Shown: piece by piece, positions 12,338 through 16,679 of the stretch
How positions within the stretch are numbered: position 1 is the stretch's first letter
How the letters are laid out: every line of letters begins with the position of its first letter
Virus record (IMG/VR): IMGVR_UViG_2579778802_000007
Span: 1 to 31,026 of that record
Reading direction: 5' to 3' (one strand)
Source: a virus
Taxonomy: Duplodnaviria > Heunggongvirae > Uroviricota > Caudoviricetes
Length of the DNA: 31,026 bases
Translations under genes and position numbers: made by a program
Notes under the pieces: model-generated
Database searches by the model: none
What the model saw: the letters and a program-made list of their open reading frames with translations, nothing else
Told to the model about the DNA's origin: nothing

Positions 12338-13018
12338 TTACCCCTGCCGCCCGATAACCACGACCTTTCCGCCCCCGCCTTCATCACGGGTACTGATGTC
12401 CTGGGAGATTCGCCGGGAGCCAACCAGCATTTCCCCGTAAGGCACCGGCATCGGGTTCCCCTGGGCAATCATGTTATCCAGCGAGGAAAAGTACGTGTTC
12501 TGTCTGCCGTTATCCGTTACGCGGTAATCCGGTGTTTTTGCCTTCGGGGCCAGCATCTGTGCCATACCGCCCAGTATCATGCTGGCCCCCAGTGAAAACA
12601 GCATCGTGGTGGCAGAAAAACCACCGGCTGCCAGGGCTGAACCCCATAACGCCATCGAGGCACCGGCCGTGAAGAAAGAGCCCACGATGGCTGCCGCCCC
12701 CAGCACAATCTGCAGTCCGCCCTTTCCGGCTCCGGCCAGTCGCGGCACAATGTGGATGACCGTTCCCTCACCCAGCTGTTCGTGAAGACGGGCGTACACC
12801 GCCTCCGGTGCCGTGTCATCACCGGCAATACGTATCTGGTACCAGCCTTCGTTCATCTGACGGCGAAAGCCCGGCATCTGCATCGACAGGGCGCGAATGG
12901 CTTCCGCTGCCGTGTTCACATACAGGCTGAGGCGGCGGCCAAATCGTTGTAAATCCCCGTGAAGGCAGATGCGTGCCAGTGGCGGTGACGCCAGACAGAA
13001 TGCGTTCGTCGTTGCCAT
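12338..13018 (-). CDS. I: Tail assembly protein I
   Basis: Similarity to lambda gpI ('ARICLHGDLQRFGRR...QIVLGAAAIVGSFFTAG...KTPDYRVTDNGRQNTYFSSLDNM'). Confidence 0.93.
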   Translation of the reverse strand: MATTNAFCLASPPLARICLHGDLQRFGRRLSLYVNTAAEAIRALSMQMPGFRRQMNEGWYQIRIAGDDTAPEAVYARLHEQLGEGTVIHIVPRLAGAGKGGLQIVLGAAAIVGSFFTAGASMALWGSALAAGGFSATTMLFSLGASMILGGMAQMLAPKAKTPDYRVTDNGRQNTYFSSLDNMIAQGNPMPVPYGEMLVGSRRISQDISTRDEGGGGKVVVIGRQG

Positions 13019-13653
13019 TTTTCGGAATACCTCTCCCGTTTACTCAGTTGTTCAGGCAGATGGTGAAGCAGCTCACCGTTGCCACAGTAAATGGCGGCAT
13101 GGTTCGGTACCGAAGCACCAAAGCAGCACAGCAGAATATCGCCCGCCTGTGCAGAGGACAGGGGCACCCGGTAAAAGCCCGTTCCCTCCATATTGTCCAG
13201 GTACAGGTTCTGGCCATTGCGCCACCAGTCATCCTCGCGATGAAAATCCGGCATTTCAGTCCCCGCCAGATGGTAAGCATCCCGGAACAGGGTGTAACAG
13301 TCCGTCACCCCGTGTTCAAAGCGCCGTCCCGTCAGGTGTGGCACACAGCGGAATTTGTGAATGTCACCCCGGCAGACCAGCCACCAGGGCAGTGCGCTTT
13401 TTATCTGCAGCCGCCGGTCAGCCTCGCTCAGCCAGGGCAGCCCACCGGGATGACTGTGGACCAGTGCCACAATCTCCCCCGACATCTCTGCCCGCAGCCA
13501 GTCTTCCGGTGCGATACGAAAATACGCCTCCGGCTCTGCGGAAATATTCACACAAGGGATATACCGCTCCCCCTCCGGCGTTCTCACCACGAAGCCGCAC
13601 GACTCCGCAGGCGCACACCGCCGGGCATGTGCCAATATATTGCTATAGAGCAT
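12916..13653 (-). CDS. K: Tail assembly protein K (NlpC/P60-like, JAB/MPN-like)
   Basis: Similarity to lambda gpK ('VHSHPGG.PWLSEADRRLQ...HLTGRRFEHGVTDC.TLFRDAYHLAG'). Start set to ATG 13653, which has AGGAG upstream. Confidence 0.93.
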   Translation of the reverse strand: MLYSNILAHARRCAPAESCGFVVRTPEGERYIPCVNISAEPEAYFRIAPEDWLRAEMSGEIVALVHSHPGGLPWLSEADRRLQIKSALPWWLVCRGDIHKFRCVPHLTGRRFEHGVTDCYTLFRDAYHLAGTEMPDFHREDDWWRNGQNLYLDNMEGTGFYRVPLSSAQAGDILLCCFGASVPNHAAIYCGNGELLHHLPEQLSKRERYSEKWQRRTHSVWRHRHWHASAFTGIYNDLAAASACM

Positions 13654-13707
13654 GAGAACTCCTGATAAAAAACCCAGCCGAGGCTGGGTCATTTCGTTGG
13701 TAATCTG

Positions 13708-14610
13708 TTAGTAGTGATGCAGTGAAGGCGGCAACTCTTTGCTCTTAAGCCTTACCCATGCGGAAAGATTCGTTGGTCCATCTGGCTCATTAATATCAAC
13801 ATCTCGTGTGTGATTGATTAAAACGTCTCTCGCCATTCCAATAACATACGAGAACTCATGGCCGTAGTTGTAGCACCTGTCAGAATAGTTCGATTGAATT
13901 TGCTTTAGCGCCGGATACAGTTCGCGGAATAATGCCTGTGAGCGGTTGGCATAATCCCATAGCCATACAAGGCTGTTTGCTTCTTTTGCGGAAAGCTCGT
14001 TGGTTTTCTTCTCTTGTTTGCCAATGAACTCACCTTCAAGCACTACCCTGTGGATGTACTCTACGGCTTGCGGTATCTGAGATGCATCAAGCTCTTCAAT
14101 ACTTTCCACATTGAAACGCTGATGAATCATTGCATAAGCTTCTGGGTACATTAGATGCTTTTTGCTGACCAGCATATTTACAGCATCACGAAGCGGAGTC
14201 CTGTCATCAACAGATGTTTTCTTACGTGCATTTTCTGCCTTTCCCTTTGTCCAGTAGTCATGCAGCACAGTAAAGCATTCTTCCTGGTACTGAATCAGTT
14301 TATCGCGGATGTCAGCACGAACTTTCTCGGGGTTGATGCTGAACAGCCATCCATTTAACTTCTTCAAAGGAAGGCAGAGTAGCTTACGAAGCTTTCCATC
14401 AGCAGCAACCATATTCATATGAATACAGTTGAACTTATCTAGTTGTTTCATAAGTTTTTGTTGCTGAGTACCCCAGCTCATTCCGAGGTTTTCAACGATT
14501 GGCTTCATCGCAACATATGCAACTCCGGCAGCCATGGCGGTGATAATTTGCTGACCGTTGAATGGTACGTAAGAGGTGTTCACTGCTTCTAAAATTGCTA
14601 TACTATTCAT
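13708..14610 (-). CDS. Antirepressor-like protein (P22 Ant N-terminal-type domain)
   Basis: N-terminus '[22 protein letters not shown]...[21 protein letters not shown]' resembles antirepressor N-terminal domains. Sits downstream of the arc-like gene, as ant does in P22 immI. Start at ATG 14610 (GGAG upstream). Confidence 0.55.
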
Positions 14611-14672
14611 GTTGGTTTTTCTCCACGGATTTACTGACAACCGAAGCCCTGACTGTTCCCGCAGTTGGGGCT

Positions 14673-14876
14673 TCAACTTTCTGCTCTATCAGTTATATCT
14701 TTCCCTTCATATACTTCACCTATATTGCTAATGCTGGCAGAACATCCAAGATGCTTGTATCTTATGATGTCCAACACGCAGTCACTACACAGCATCCGAC
14801 CTGTTTCTTTAGAGTAAATGTATGTTTGATCAGCGTCTGATTCGCTAATGCCGCAGAAACAACATTCTTTACTCAT
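14673..14876 (-). CDS. Small Cys-rich protein (67 aa; CxxC...CxxC, zinc-ribbon-like), hypothetical
   Basis: ATG overlaps the arc-like stop (ATGA); purine-rich SD upstream; 'CCFCG...CSDCV' motif. Confidence 0.4.
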
Positions 14877-15025
14877 ACCATTACCCCCTCTCTCTTCAAG
14901 CTGTCTATCAGGCGCTTGATAACCTCTGAGTTAAACGACCTGCACTCTTCCTTTGCCCTGCTACCTATAGCATCCTTTAACGACTGCGGCATCCTTACCA
15001 AAATCTTACTTATTTCTTTCTCCAT
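14873..15025 (-). CDS. arc: Arc-like ribbon-helix-helix repressor
   Basis: 'MPQSLKDAIGSRAKEECRSFNSEVIKRLIDSLKREG' resembles P22 Arc ('...VRKVAEENGRSVNSEIYQRVMESFKKEG'). Start at ATG 15025 (GGAGGG 4 nt upstream); an alternative in-frame ATG lies at 15037. Confidence 0.7.
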   Translation of the reverse strand: MEKEISKILVRMPQSLKDAIGSRAKEECRSFNSEVIKRLIDSLKREGVMV

Positions 15026-15139
15026 GTTACCCTCCATACAAACAACTCTTTTCGAATACAAAAGATAGCAAAGCGAGTATATCTAGTCAAAATTTTTTTG
15101 CATACACTTTGCTATCAAATTGAATACCAAAGGTGTGAT
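15026..15139. promoter_or_regulatory. Divergent arc/mnt control region with 10-bp perfect inverted repeat GATAGCAAAG (15064-15073) / CTTTGCTATC (15107-15116)
   Basis: Inverted repeat seen in sequence; divergent RHH genes flank it as in the P22 Pant/Pmnt region. Confidence 0.45.
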
Positions 15140-15388
15140 ATGGCAAAGGGTGTGTCAATTTCTCCAACTACGGTAAGAATCCCTGAATCTTTACGCGAGG
15201 CTCTTGCTGTCAGAGCATCAAAAAATGGTCGCTCTGTTAACTCCGAGATCGTCATGATTTTGCAAGCCGCGATTGATGAAGATAGGTCGCCAAAGTCAGT
15301 TGAGTCATTTGCTCAGCAAGAAGCAGACAAATTCAAAGAGGCGCTGCTTGAGACGCTAAAGACCATGTATGGTAAGGATGAAAAATAA
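15140..15388 (+). CDS. mnt: Mnt-like ribbon-helix-helix repressor (83 aa)
   Basis: 'ESLREALAVRASKNGRSVNSEIVMILQAAIDE' resembles P22 Mnt ('...KLKFRAEANGRSMNSELLQIVQDAL'). Same length as P22 Mnt; SD AAGGTG upstream. Confidence 0.7.
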   Translation: MAKGVSISPTTVRIPESLREALAVRASKNGRSVNSEIVMILQAAIDEDRSPKSVESFAQQEADKFKEALLETLKTMYGKDEK

Positions 15389-15924
15389 TGCTGCACACAA
15401 TTCATTTCTTATGCCCCGTTAACACTGCCACTGTTGGGCAACTTCAGAACCACTGTCTCACCGCATTATCTCAAGGCGCAACTGAATTAAATATCCATAT
15501 ATCAAGTCAGGGAGGGGAAACTGCCGCTGGCTTTACTGCGTATAACTTTCTTAAGTCACTCCCTGTTACCGTTAGAACTCACAACATAAGCAATGTTGAA
15601 TCCATAGCTAATATCGTTTTCCTGGCTGGCTCAGAACGTTTCGCAAACCCATTATCAAGATTCCTGTTACATCCTCTATTATGGTGCTTTGCCTCCCCAG
15701 CCGCCGACCATGCCAGATTGAGAGAGTACGGGAAATGCCTCGATAACGATCTTGATCGCTTCGTTGAGACGTTCAATATCGACATCGGAACCCATATTAG
15801 GTGGGCATCCCTGATAGCAGACTCGACCATTTTGGATGCTAACAAGGCTCTTGAGCATGGCATAATTAATTCCATAAAAACTGCAAGGCTGGCATCCAAT
15901 CAGGCAAACTGGTGGGTTGTTTGA
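15388..15924 (+). CDS. ClpP/crotonase-fold serine peptidase-like protein (S14/S49-like), translationally coupled to mnt (TAATG overlap)
   Basis: 'ELNIHISSQGGETAAGFTAYNFLKSLPVTVRTHNISNVESIANIVFLAGSERFANPLSRFLLHP' parallels the ClpP core ('IYLYINSPGG...GQAASMGAFLL...RVMIHQP'), with candidate Ser and His at corresponding positions. Confidence 0.7.
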   Translation: MLHTIHFLCPVNTATVGQLQNHCLTALSQGATELNIHISSQGGETAAGFTAYNFLKSLPVTVRTHNISNVESIANIVFLAGSERFANPLSRFLLHPLLWCFASPAADHARLREYGKCLDNDLDRFVETFNIDIGTHIRWASLIADSTILDANKALEHGIINSIKTARLASNQANWWVV

Positions 15925-15944
15925 TGGGTAAATCATGATTACTC

Positions 15945-15971
15945 CTTATAAAAAACCCACCTGACGGTGGG
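15945..15971 (-). terminator. Rho-independent terminator on the late (minus) strand immediately after L (CCCACC-GTCA-GGTGGG + TTTTTTAT)
   Basis: 6-bp GC stem with 4-nt loop followed by a T-run in the minus orientation, about 10 nt past the L stop. Confidence 0.55.
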
Positions 15972-15980
15972 CATAATCCA

Positions 15981-16679
15981 TTACTGCGAAAGTTTATTAA
16001 TGGAAAGGAAACCGCCAAAATTGCCGACATTCCTGCGCAGTTCACACCCGCGCATGCACTTGCTGCATCTGTCCTTACGGATATCCGTGGTGGGTTTATC
16101 GAACTCATCCGCCACAGCCCCGCCCGTGTAACCACACTCATCAGAGCGGTAGGTCCACATACAGGTGTTCGCCAGCATGATACGACCGGGAAACAGCGCC
16201 CCGTCCGTCTCGGTCGGTGTGGCCAGCACAAACGAGGCCGTCATGGCTGTCAGCTCCGACATCTGCTCCACCACCCAGCGGTCACTCAGCTCCTGCTCCG
16301 GGTCCGCCTCCGGATTGCCCGCAACGAAATTCACCGCATCCAGAAAACGGGCATACACCCGGCGGCGGACCACCGTGGCCCCCACCAGGCTCTGCAAATC
16401 CTCCGCCATTCCGGTGACAAGACCAAACAGATTGGACACCGTCAGCGACGGTCTGGCACTGCTGCCCTTCCCGCTCATCTCAAAACCGCTGCCGTCAATC
16501 GGGTATGCCTCATACTTACGCCCCTGCCAGGTGACCGGCTCCCCTTTTTCATTCAGCTCATTACAGAAAAAATACCGCTCACCGCCCTGTACCGTCAGGT
16601 CGATTTCCCAGAGTACCACCCGCGGTGACTGCTCTGATTTAACCGACTCGTTCAGACTTTCTTCGTGAATATCCTGCAT
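15981..16679 (-). CDS. L: Minor tail protein L
   Basis: Near-collinear identity with lambda gpL ('MQDIHEESLNE...WEIDLT..GGERYFFCNE.NEKGEPVTWQGR.Y'). Confidence 0.95.
   Translation of the reverse strand: MQDIHEESLNESVKSEQSPRVVLWEIDLTVQGGERYFFCNELNEKGEPVTWQGRKYEAYPIDGSGFEMSGKGSSARPSLTVSNLFGLVTGMAEDLQSLVGATVVRRRVYARFLDAVNFVAGNPEADPEQELSDRWVVEQMSELTAMTASFVLATPTETDGALFPGRIMLANTCMWTYRSDECGYTGGAVADEFDKPTTDIRKDRCSKCMRGCELRRNVGNFGGFLSINKLSQ

What the first reader, a model, noticed from the sequence alone, without database searches (positions are those of the whole stretch)
15026..15139. Divergent arc/mnt control region with widely spaced 10-bp inverted repeat
Back-to-back RHH repressor genes are separated by 114 bp containing the perfect repeat pair GATAGCAAAG ... 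CTTTGCTATC, 33 bp apart. This may be two half-operators or a looping element for the two repressors, with sequence unlike the P22 Omnt/Oarc operators. It implies an immunity specificity distinct from P22.
Basis: partly seen in the sequence, partly recalled or inferred. Interest (0 to 1): 0.4.

Follow-up and report, generated by a model that had tools for sequence, protein, structure and literature searches.

The report
Mirror-image repressor sites in phage switch
The two 10-base mirror-image sequences are real and are most likely binding sites for the Mnt-like repressor that keeps a prophage's anti-repressor gene switched off; this is an uncharacterised variant of the well-known phage P22 immI switch, not a new kind of system.

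Summary
GATAGCAAAG (15064-15073) and CTTTGCTATC (15107-15116) are 33 bp apart in the 114-bp gap between two divergent Arc-family ribbon-helix-helix (RHH) genes. A perfect repeat this long arises in about 0.7% of shuffles.

The locus is a complete P22-type immI module: ant, sar antisense RNA, arc-like and mnt-like genes. It also carries an extra 67-aa ORF and a ClpP-like gene. It sits between lambda-like tail genes L and K.

About 150 related loci fall into four specificity classes. All share an invariant promoter backbone (AGTCAAAATTTTTTTGnnTACAC) and fixed spacing, but each carries its own repeated element at the two arm positions. The arms stay complementary across classes (86.9% of cells against 74.9% in shuffles, 0/500).

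The element follows the N-terminus of the Mnt-like protein, not the Arc-like one. In the other classes its core is CACnGTG, which is also the core of P22 Omnt.

The left arm overlaps the -10/spacer of the strong leftward Pant-like promoter. The right arm overlaps both candidate rightward promoters.

My best reading is two Omnt-like operators in inverted orientation that repress ant and autoregulate mnt. Looping, the Arc-like operator and the mnt promoter remain unresolved.

This is a new variant of a known kind, of modest interest.

The parts
15064..15073 (.). Left arm, GATAGCAAAG
   Evidence: (I2). Invariant in 16 distinct class-A intergenic sequences except G/T at 15068.
15107..15116 (.). 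Right arm, CTTTGCTATC
   Evidence: (I2). Invariant in class A except C/A at 15112, the mirror of 15068.
15066..15078 (+). Proposed operator b, a 13-mer: TAGCAA-A-GCGAGT (GTGAGT in 15 of 16 relatives). It overlaps the upstream end of the Pant -10 and the spacer.
   Evidence: Same alignment columns hold TATCAC-T-GTGAC (class D), TATCAT-C-GTGATA (class B) and CTACAC-G-GTGTT (class C). The core matches CACnGTG of P22 Omnt. Protein binding is inferred.
15102..15114 (-). Proposed operator c, a 13-mer read on the minus strand: TAGCAA-A-GTGTAT. It lies 36 bp centre-to-centre from b.
   Evidence: Same columns hold ...CAC-T-GTGATA (classes B and D) and CTACAC-T-GTGTAG (class C). There are no indels between b and c in any class. 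Protein binding is inferred.
15108..15119 (.). TTTGCTATCAAA, an 11/12 palindrome and an alternative parse of the right site. It is the perfect palindrome TTTGATATCAAA in 17 of 26 class-A contexts.
   Evidence: Class B has GTGATATCAC at the same place.
15125..15132 (+). Third copy (d), TACCAAAG. With the right arm it forms a 26-bp imperfect palindrome, 15107-15132 (10 of 13 positions). It overlaps the mnt Shine-Dalgarno sequence.
   Evidence: one mismatch; D2. Class D has TATCAC-G-GTGTAA in the same columns. Function is uncertain because the core spacing is off by one base.
15141..15148 (+). Fourth weak copy (e), TGGCAAAG, inside mnt codons 1-3.
   Evidence: (D1, I1). It may be chance.
15054..15064 (+). 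GAATACAAAAG, a direct repeat of GAATACCAAAG (15122-15132). It lies at about the Pant start site. Possible weak site a.
   Evidence: D2. Classes B and D have (T/A)ATCACAA there.
15062..15090 (-). Pant-like sigma-70 promoter: -35 TTGACT (15090-15085), 17-bp spacer, -10 TATCTT (15067-15062) preceded by TG. Predicted start is near 15055.
   Evidence: It is the only promoter-like site in 14600-15500. My PWM score is 15.0, against 16.9 for P22 Pant. The -35 is conserved in all classes.
15085..15108 (.). Invariant backbone AGTCAAAATTTTTTTGCATACACT: the Pant -35, an A4T7 tract placed like an UP element, and TACACT.
   Evidence: The pattern is found in 59 viral and 31 metagenome stretches, about 29 of which are immI loci. 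These columns are invariant or nearly so across the four classes.
15080..15108 (+). Candidate rightward (Pmnt-like) promoter 1: -35 TATCTA (15080-15085), 17-bp spacer, -10 TACACT (15103-15108).
   Evidence: The candidate is among the top-scoring rightward hits in classes A, C and D, and the TACACT hexamer is also conserved in class B. It scores weakly in the window (4.7). Not confirmed.
15097..15124 (+). Candidate rightward promoter 2: TTGCAT (15097-15102), 16-bp spacer, TTGAAT (15119-15124).
   Evidence: score 4.7; 6.0 for the TTTGCA/17 variant. The -10 is not conserved in classes B and C. Not confirmed.
14873..15025 (-). Arc-like RHH gene, 50 aa
   Evidence: Pfam Arc 4.4e-12. 39% identical to P22 Arc. 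GGAGGG lies 4 nt upstream of the ATG.
15140..15388 (+). Mnt-like RHH gene, 82 aa
   Evidence: Pfam Arc 9.6e-11. 36% identical to P22 Mnt over residues 11-79. Best PDB match is 1mnt_A, 2.3e-6.
14673..14876 (-). 67-aa Cys-rich ORF (CxxC...CxxC) between arc and ant
   Evidence: phrog_7150, 3e-50, unknown function. No Pfam hit.
14611..14678 (+). sar antisense RNA
   Evidence: Rfam RF00262, 95.6 bits, E 1.7e-20, full-length match.
13708..14613 (-). ant antirepressor gene, 301 aa
   Evidence: P22_AR_N 7.5e-45 and P22_AR_C 2.4e-28. 85% nucleotide identity to P22 ant and 95% to epsilon34.
15388..15924 (+). ClpP-like protease gene, 178 aa. Its start overlaps the mnt stop (TAATG).
   Evidence: Pfam CLP_protease 2.2e-11. 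phrog_94.

Best explanation
The two arms are inverted copies of one class-specific operator element, about 12-13 bp long (TAGCAA-A-GTG...), recognised by the Mnt-like ribbon-helix-helix repressor encoded on the right.

The copies sit as mirror images on either side of a shared, invariant promoter core. The left copy covers the spacer and upstream edge of the -10 of the strong leftward Pant-like promoter, which drives arc, orf67 and ant. The right copy lies within both candidate rightward promoters for mnt and the clpP-like gene.

In the prophage, Mnt-like protein would occupy the left site and keep antirepressor synthesis off. Occupying the right site, possibly with the weaker downstream copy at 15125-15132, would limit its own synthesis.

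What is shown: the repeat, the gene identities, the Pant-like promoter match, fixed site positions and spacing, co-variation of the arms, and association of the element with the Mnt-type N-terminus.

What is inferred: that the protein binds these sites, that it acts as a tetramer as P22 Mnt does, where mnt transcription starts, and that mnt is autoregulated.
For: 1. The repeat is real and unlikely by chance.

2. Four classes of homologous control regions share the backbone AGTCAAAATTTTTTTGnnTACAC with no indels between the two sites. Each class has its own element at both arm positions:
- Class A: GATAGCAAAG(T/C)G and GATAGCAAAGTG
- Classes B and D: nGTATCA(C/T)nGTG and GATATCACAGTG
- Class C: TACTACAC(G/C)GTG and TGCTACACAGTG
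.

3. The arms stay complementary. 86.9% of cells pair, against 74.9 +/- 2.9% in shuffles (0/500). Five of 12 positions changed on both sides. Sliding one arm by 1-3 columns gives 12-61%. The own-arm versus other-class matrix gives 8-11 of 12 on the diagonal and 5-9 off it.

4. Within class A the arms vary only at one mirrored position, while the arc 5' UTR varies at 8 of 28 positions.

5. The element follows Mnt, not Arc. The Arc-like N-terminus ME[KN]E[IV]S[KR]I[LV]VRMPQSL occurs with class A sites (window), class D sites (O157/O145 prophages L003, L119-L132; podophage L234) and class B sites (L204). An Arc with the identical SRILVRMP strand occurs with both class A (L017) and class D. Each Mnt N-terminal type has exactly one site type.

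6. The most divergent block between classes is about 15020-15230, covering the intergenic region and the first ~30 mnt codons. The mnt 3' half is shared; L041 is 97-100% identical from 15320 onward. This fits the established result that a short N-terminal region sets Arc and Mnt specificity (Knight & Sauer 1989, listed as reference 28 in PMC3325190).

7. The site core in classes B, C and D is CACnGTG. That is also the centre of the 17-bp palindrome AGGTCCAC-C-GTGGACCT in the P22 intergenic region, which I know from the literature as Omnt.

8. The left arm overlaps the only strong promoter match (PWM 15.0).
Against: - No binding data exist for this class, and I found none in the literature searches.
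- Effectively only three independent site classes exist, because B and D share right arms. The co-variation statistics therefore rest on few events, and the sequences are related.
- The mnt 5' end is physically adjacent to the right arm, so co-inheritance could partly reflect linkage.
- By position, the left arm lies where P22 has Oarc, between the Pant -35 and -10. Its sequence resembles the Oarc half-site (TAGCAAAGTG against TAGTAGAGTG).
- The class A element is asymmetric (CAA-A-GTG), which is odd for a symmetric homo-oligomer.
- A different parse fits class A equally well: the palindrome TTTGATATCAAA centred at 15113.5.
- The rightward promoter is not confidently located (best PWM 4.7-6.0), so autoregulation is conjecture.
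- Recombinant L204 is a metagenome contig with a frameshifted mnt.
Confidence: 0.6

Rival explanations
1. The arms are operator half-sites for the Arc-like protein, as in P22, where Arc binds between the -35 and -10 of Pant and represses both divergent promoters.
For: The left arm occupies the same promoter position as P22/epsilon34 arcO (L005 annotation; sequences). The region from the -10 to the -35 is 19/29 identical to P22 when I aligned by hand. TAGCAAAGTG resembles the Oarc half-site TAGTAGAGTG. In P22, Arc represses two divergent overlapping promoters (PMC2724298).
Against: The same Arc-like N-terminus, including the identical beta-strand SRILVRMP in L017 and class D, is found with three different arm sequences: CAAAG, CACTG and CATCG types. 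The inverted TAGA boxes needed by P22 Arc are absent. The cores of the sister classes match Omnt, not Oarc.
Confidence: 0.13
2. Both RHH proteins use the same repeated element, competing or cooperating at shared sites.
For: In class C the Arc-like and Mnt-like N-termini are nearly the same (MKVRDIAPLGIRLP and MKGARDISPMGIRVP), so shared sites are likely in that class. The two window proteins are 47% identical over 32 aa of the RHH core.
Against: In the window class the predicted DNA-facing strand residues differ (S-K-I-L-V-R against S-P-T-T-V-R). The Arc-like type is not tied to a site type.
Confidence: 0.1
3. The repeat acts as a nucleic-acid hairpin. One possibility is an RNA stem, followed by UUUUGUAUU on the minus strand, that attenuates late tail-operon transcripts reading through the module. 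Another is a DNA cruciform.
For: The arms pair in the minimum-free-energy fold of both strands. On the minus strand the 3' arm is followed by TTTTGTATT. The arms remain complementary across classes.
Against: Fold z-scores are only -1.8 and -1.7. The loop is 33 nt and no terminator-like site was found. Twenty of 26 class-A contexts have an uncompensated mismatch in the middle of the stem. The central position is unpaired in 5 of 7 class representatives. Neither predicted local transcript contains both arms.
Confidence: 0.04
4. There is no dedicated function. The similarity arises from chance, or because both arms carry extended -10-like promoter sequence (TGcTATC) for the two divergent promoters.
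For: The left arm read on the minus strand is CTT-TG-C-TATC(TT), which is the extended -10 of Pant. The right arm is CTT-TG-C-TATC(AA) on the plus strand. Chance P is only about 0.007, and this was one of many features scanned.
Against: The right-hand hexamers (TATCAA, TATCAC, AGCAAT) lack the conserved -7 T or the -11 A, so they are poor -10 elements. Concerted changes outside the TATC part, such as CAA against CAC, occur in both arms and in the third copy.
Confidence: 0.08

Closest known systems
Phage P22 (and epsilon34) immI region: mnt / Pmnt-Pant / arc-ant with sar RNA, operators Omnt and Oarc
   Same: Same gene order and orientation. Homologous Ant (85% nucleotide identity), Arc-like (39% aa) and Mnt-like (36% aa, including the C-terminal region) proteins. 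sar RNA is present. A strong Pant with TTGAC-type -35, 17-bp spacer and TAT-type -10 lies in the same place. RHH repressors sit over divergent promoters.
   Different: The intergenic region is 114 bp against 90 bp. The extra sequence is an A4T7 tract plus the right-hand sites, so the predicted divergent start sites lie about 60 bp apart rather than overlapping fully. There is no 17-bp Omnt palindrome downstream of the Pant -10 and no TAGA/TCTA Oarc. Instead there are two to four copies of one asymmetric element, one of them where P22 has Oarc. An extra 67-aa ORF lies between arc and ant. A ClpP-like gene follows mnt. The module sits in a lambda-like tail operon rather than beside a tailspike gene.
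Sister immI classes B, C and D, found in E. coli O157/O145 lambdoid prophages between tail genes L and K and in Lederbergvirus podophages such as vB_EcoP-611R6
   Same: Identical backbone, identical site positions and spacing, and a near-identical Mnt C-terminal half. Class D has the same Arc-like type and the same orf67 (93-100% nucleotide identity).
   Different: Site sequence is TATCAC-n-GTGATA or CTACAC-n-GTGTAG, palindromic with a CACnGTG core, against the asymmetric TAGCAA-A-GTG. The Mnt N-terminus is VRDI(A/S)PY.VRMP or ARDISPMGIRVP, against GVSISPTTVRIP. Class D in prophage L003 lacks the ClpP-like gene.
Other RHH repressors that use several short repeats (MetJ met-boxes, omega heptads, FitAB IR36, CopG)
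   Same: A beta-sheet reads short 7-13-bp elements arranged as direct or inverted repeats over promoters, with cooperative dimer-of-dimer binding (general statements in PMC2724298, and PMC3920265). FitA and AmrZ show that a hydrophobic residue at the central strand position can read bases (PMC3325190).
   Different: These are not homologous control regions. My recollection that the FitAB half-site is TGCTATCA, nearly the right arm, could not be verified in the library. It is a lead only.

Membership tests
P22-type immI (secondary immunity) module | Antirepressor gene ant | tested here: met
   P22_AR_N 7.5e-45 and P22_AR_C 2.4e-28. 85% nucleotide identity to P22 ant.
P22-type immI (secondary immunity) module | A small Arc-type RHH gene upstream of ant on the same strand, and a divergent Mnt-type RHH gene | tested here: met
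   Pfam Arc on both ORFs. BLASTP against P22 Arc 1e-9 and P22 Mnt 8e-14. 1mnt_A is the best PDB match.
P22-type immI (secondary immunity) module | sar antisense RNA across the ant ribosome-binding region | tested here: met
   RF00262, 95.6 bits against a gathering score of 43, at 14611-14678.
P22-type immI (secondary immunity) module | Divergent Pant/Pmnt promoters in the arc-mnt gap | tested here: inconclusive
   The Pant-like promoter is clear. The rightward promoter has only weak candidates, PWM 4.7-6.0. No transcription start-site data are available.
P22-type immI (secondary immunity) module | P22 operator sequences: Omnt AGGTCCACCGTGGACCT and Oarc with inverted TAGA boxes | tested here: not met
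   Neither is present in 15026-15139. This separates specificity, not architecture.
P22-type immI (secondary immunity) module | Mnt represses Pant; Arc represses Pant and Pmnt; Ant inactivates the c2-type repressor | not testable with these tools
   Needs EMSA, footprinting, reporter assays or genetics.
Mnt repressor family (RHH plus C-terminal tetramerisation domain) | N-terminal RHH domain | tested here: met
   PF03869 over residues 12-45. Alignment to 1mnt_A residues 9-74.
Mnt repressor family (RHH plus C-terminal tetramerisation domain) | Homologous C-terminal region, which makes tetramers in P22 Mnt (Waldburger & Sauer 1995, cited in PMC3325190) | tested here: inconclusive
   The BLASTP alignment runs to residue 79 of 82, against P22 residue 81 of 83, but identity there is low. 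Oligomeric state was not tested.
Mnt repressor family (RHH plus C-terminal tetramerisation domain) | Binds a roughly 17-bp two-fold symmetric operator | tested here: inconclusive
   Sister classes have 13-mer palindromes with the Omnt core CACnGTG. The window's element is asymmetric (TAGCAA-A-GTG). No binding data exist.
Intrinsic terminator or RNA hairpin | G+C-rich stem, short loop, T run, and compensatory changes | tested here: not met
   The loop is 33 nt. No terminator-like site was found. z is -1.8. Central mismatches are uncompensated in 20 of 26 relatives.

The most novel reading that the evidence does not exclude
A single Mnt-like tetramer, or a pair of tetramers, bridges the two mirror-image operators across the 36-bp shared promoter core. 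The invariant A4T7 tract would supply the bend. This would form a micro-loop that shuts the antirepressor promoter and the repressor's own promoter together. One protein and one repeated asymmetric element would then do the job that P22 splits between Omnt and Oarc, leaving the Arc-like protein with a different, still unidentified target such as the invariant backbone.
Probability: 0.12. Interest if true: 0.5.

Novelty: new variant of a known kind. Interest (0 to 1): 0.3.

Why it matters
The immI antirepressor module decides whether a resident prophage, and co-resident prophages with related repressors, stay silent.

This operator and repressor class occurs in about 2% of complete E. coli genomes (98 of 5426). 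Its sister class D sits in the tail operons of O157:H7 and O145 prophages. Yet only the P22 version has been studied.

Defining the operator element and the recognition cassette (the intergenic region plus the first ~30 mnt codons) gives three things:
- a testable map of immI immunity groups;
- a natural series of RHH specificity swaps (CAA against CAC cores, paired with GVSISPTT against VRDIAPYS N-termini), useful for studying beta-sheet DNA recognition;
- orthogonal repressor/operator pairs for synthetic circuits.

It does not change the general picture of how such switches work.

Tried and rejected
- **More classes.** I looked for further specificity classes using the backbone pattern. It gave 0 hits in one-genome-per-species contigs. 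Viral and metagenome hits added only subvariants of the same four classes, plus unrelated hits L212 and L214.
- **RNA hairpin or terminator.** The fold z-scores are not significant and mismatches are uncompensated.
- **P22-equivalent Pmnt.** A -10 immediately left of GTCAA has no usable -35 in any class.
- **Right arm as an extended -10 promoter (TGcTATCAA).** Rejected because the -7 T is missing and the hexamer is not conserved across classes.
- **Arc-like operator.** I compared regions that share the Arc type but differ in Mnt type (A, D, L204) and found no convincing Arc-specific motif.
- **Literature.** I found nothing on operators of this class or on the O157 tail-operon ant modules. The Knight & Sauer and Berggrun & Sauer papers are not held. 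My recollection of the FitAB half-site sequence was not confirmed.
- **Kapi1.** RNA-seq in a published study did not detect its mnt. It belongs to a different immI class with a truncated intergenic region, so it is not informative here.
- **H86.** This hit is a degraded copy.
- **Structure prediction.** I did not run it. A single-chain model of an obligate oligomer would not settle DNA specificity.

Full report
**1. The observation**

The window reads GATAGCAAAG at 15064-15073 and CTTTGCTATC at 15107-15116. The two are perfectly complementary with 33 nt between them.

They lie in the 114-bp gap (15026-15139) between a 50-aa ORF on the minus strand (14873-15025) and an 82-aa ORF on the plus strand (15140-15388). 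Both ORFs hit Pfam Arc PF03869 (4e-12 and 1e-10).

The 10-mer has no other exact copy in the 31-kb window. A perfect inverted repeat of at least 10 nt appeared in 37 of 5000 dinucleotide-preserving shuffles of the gap, so P is about 0.007.

**2. What the locus is**

Going left from the gap there are four features:
- the arc-like gene;
- a 67-aa Cys-rich ORF (14673-14876; phrog_7150, unknown function);
- a full-length sar antisense RNA (14611-14678, RF00262, 95.6 bits);
- ant (13708-14613; P22_AR_N and P22_AR_C; 85% nucleotide identity to P22 ant and 95% to epsilon34).

Going right there are two:
- the mnt-like gene, 36% identical to P22 Mnt over residues 11-79, with 1mnt_A as best PDB match;
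- a ClpP-like gene (15388-15924) whose start overlaps the mnt stop.

The module is inserted between lambda-like tail genes L (15981-16679) and K (12916-13692) (compare the annotation of L003). It is a P22-type immI 'ant moron'. That region is known to be highly variable, and only the P22 version has been studied (PMC2629481).

**3. Promoters**

The only sigma-70-like site in 14600-15500 is leftward. Its -35 is TTGACT (15090-15085), the spacer is 17 bp, and its -10 is TATCTT (15067-15062) preceded by TG. My PWM scores it 15.0, against 16.9 for P22 Pant at the homologous place.

The left arm covers Pant positions about -9 to -18. An A4T7 tract (15089-15099) lies where an UP element would be.

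No strong rightward promoter exists. There are two weak candidates:
- TATCTA-17-TACACT (15080-15108). Its -10 hexamer is conserved in all relatives.
- TTGCAT-16-TTGAAT (15097-15124).

The right arm lies inside the core of both.

**4. Relatives**

Protein-guided and pattern-guided scans returned about 150 related loci, plus annotated phage and E. coli records.

All loci with the backbone AGTCAAA(A/G)TTTTTTTGnnTACAC fall into four classes:

| Class | Members | Arc-like N-terminus | Mnt-like N-terminus |
|---|---|---|---|
| A | window, phiv205-1, 98 of 5426 complete E. coli genomes | MEKEISKILVRMP | MAKGVSISPTTVRIP |
| D | O157/O145 prophages between L and K; podophage vB_EcoP-611R6 | MEKEVSRILVRMP | MTKVRDIAPYSVRMP |
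| B | L039 | MRKDVVDCIVRMS | MPKIKVRDISPYGVRMP |
| C | L040-L050 | MKVRDIAPLGIRLP | MKGARDISPMGIRVP |

Aligned on the backbone, there are no indels between the two arm positions in any class. Each class carries its own element at both positions:

| Class | Left | Right, reverse-complemented |
|---|---|---|
| A | GATAGCAAAG(C/T)G | GATAGCAAAGTG |
| D | CGTATCACTGTG | GATATCACAGTG |
| B | AGTATCATCGTG | GATATCACAGTG |
| C | TACTACACGGTG | TGCTACACAGTG |

Complementarity between the arms is 86.9% of cells, against 74.9 +/- 2.9% when partners are shuffled among sequences (0/500). Five of 12 positions changed on both sides. Sliding one arm by 1-3 columns gives 12-61%.

The caveat is that there are few independent classes and the sequences are related.

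**5. Variation within class A**

Among 16 distinct intergenic sequences from 26 contexts, the arms vary only at 15068 (G/T) and its mirror 15112 (C/A). The arc 5' UTR (15026-15053) varies at 8 positions.

Only 6 of 26 contexts have the perfect 10/10 pair. In 17 of 26 the right site is the perfect 12-bp palindrome TTTGATATCAAA. Position 15074 is T in 15 of 16, which extends the repeat to 12 nt.

The uncompensated central mismatch argues against a hairpin. So do the non-significant fold z-scores (-1.8 and -1.7) and the absence of any terminator-like site.

**6. Which protein binds**

The Arc-like N-terminus of the window type occurs with class A sites, with class D sites (many genomes), and, in metagenome contig L204, with an intergenic region otherwise identical to class B. 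Class B's own Arc is different. L017 (class A) and class D have the identical strand SRILVRMP.

Each Mnt N-terminal type, in contrast, has exactly one site type.

Identity profiles show that the block about 15020-15230 (the gap plus roughly 30 mnt codons) is the divergent cassette. The mnt 3' half is shared: L041 is 97-100% identical from 15320 onward. This fits the established finding that a short N-terminal region sets Arc and Mnt specificity (Knight & Sauer 1989, listed as reference 28 in PMC3325190).

The core of the sites in classes B, C and D is CACnGTG. That is also the centre of the 17-bp palindrome AGGTCCAC-C-GTGGACCT in P22, which I know from the literature as Omnt.

The window class reads CAA-A-GTG, so the outer half has changed. 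The change recurs in the third copy TACCAAAG (15125-15132) and the weak fourth copy TGGCAAAG (15141-15148). Five matches to TAKCAAAG with at most one mismatch fall within 83 bp, against 31 in the whole 31 kb.

I therefore assign the arms to the Mnt-like protein, with confidence 0.6.

**7. Proposed mechanism**

Shown:
- the repeat and the gene identities;
- the Pant-like promoter match;
- fixed positions and spacing of the sites;
- co-variation of the arms;
- association of the element with the Mnt type.

Inferred:
- The Mnt-like repressor is probably a tetramer like P22 Mnt; its oligomeric state was not tested.
- It binds operator b (15066-15078) and blocks Pant, keeping arc, orf67 and ant off in the lysogen.
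- It binds operator c (15102-15114), perhaps together with d, over its own promoter and limits its own level.

The inverted orientation of the two sites reflects their mirror arrangement around a shared promoter core. It is visible as an inverted repeat only because the class A element is asymmetric.

Site centres are 36 bp apart on the 13-mer parse, or 47 bp on the 8-mer palindrome parse (TGnTATCA, dyads at 15066.5 and 15113.5). Neither is a whole number of helical turns, so I do not assume bridging or looping.

**8. Open points**

- The Arc-like operator is not identified.
- The rightward start site is unknown.
- The alternative parse of the class A sites (TTTGATATCAAA) is not excluded.
- By position, the left arm corresponds to P22 Oarc. 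This keeps the Arc rival alive at about 0.13.

**9. Comparison and novelty**

Architecture, genes and logic are those of P22 immI. The membership features for ant, arc/mnt and sar are met. The P22 operator sequences are not present.

The differences from P22 are:
- multiple copies of one Omnt-like element in place of Omnt plus Oarc;
- a longer gap with an invariant A/T tract;
- an extra small ORF and a ClpP-like gene;
- residence in a siphovirus tail operon.

The genes are already annotated in hundreds of genomes as 'Arc family DNA-binding protein'. I found no description of the operators.

Verdict: a real and probably functional operator pair. It is a new variant of a known kind, with interest of about 0.3.

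Noticed in passing
window 14611-14678 (+): A full-length sar antisense RNA (RF00262, 95.6 bits) is conserved. Here it lies between the 67-aa ORF and ant, not between arc and ant as in P22.
   Followed up: partly
window 14673-14876 (-); L003 about 3886-4148: A 67-aa Cys-rich ORF (CxxC...CxxC; phrog_7150, unknown function, no Pfam hit) is inserted between arc and ant. It is 93-100% identical at nucleotide level in the O145 prophage L003, where the stretch is unannotated. Other immI loci carry unrelated small ORFs of 61-80 aa in the same slot, some also with CxxC pairs. My impression that it resembles the ClpX zinc ribbon was not confirmed by Pfam.
   Followed up: partly
window 15388-15924 (+): A 178-aa ClpP-like protease gene (Pfam CLP_protease 2e-11) is translationally coupled to mnt (TAATG overlap), so it is probably expressed from the prophage. 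It is absent from the O145/O157 class D prophage version (L003). Its role in an immunity module is unknown.
   Followed up: no
window 12916-16679: The whole immI module sits between lambda-like tail genes K and L, with ant and arc in the tail-operon orientation. The same module at 95-96% identity lies beside the tailspike gene in P22-like podophages and prophages (phiv205-1, L001; E. coli L002; AR_0017, L235). The window's ClpP/L junction occurs in only 15 of 5426 complete E. coli genomes. This indicates module exchange between podovirus and siphovirus late operons.
   Followed up: partly
window about 15320 (inside mnt): There is a sharp mosaic junction. Class C2 locus L041 is 97-100% identical to the window from about 15320 through the start of the ClpP-like gene, but only 40-63% identical across most bins from the gap to that junction. 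Recombination appears to exchange the mnt 3' half independently of the recognition end.
   Followed up: partly
window 15068 and 15112: The only polymorphic positions within the arms in class A are mirror images of each other (G/T and C/A). Combinations G+G, G+T and T+G occur, but never T+T, in 26 contexts. This could be tuning of operator strength or a sampling effect.
   Followed up: partly
L233 (phage Kapi1) 1280-1350: Kapi1's arc-mnt gap is only about 32 bp. It matches the truncated variant L053 of a different immI class, whose full gap is 88 bp. The deletion may have removed the mnt promoter, which could explain the published failure to detect mnt transcripts in Kapi1 lysogens (PMC12922286).
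   Followed up: partly
L040-L050 (class C loci): In class C the Arc-like and Mnt-like proteins have almost the same N-terminal DNA-reading segment (VRDIAPLGIRLP and ARDISPMGIRVP). A short and a long repressor probably share one operator set there, which is unlike P22.
   Followed up: no
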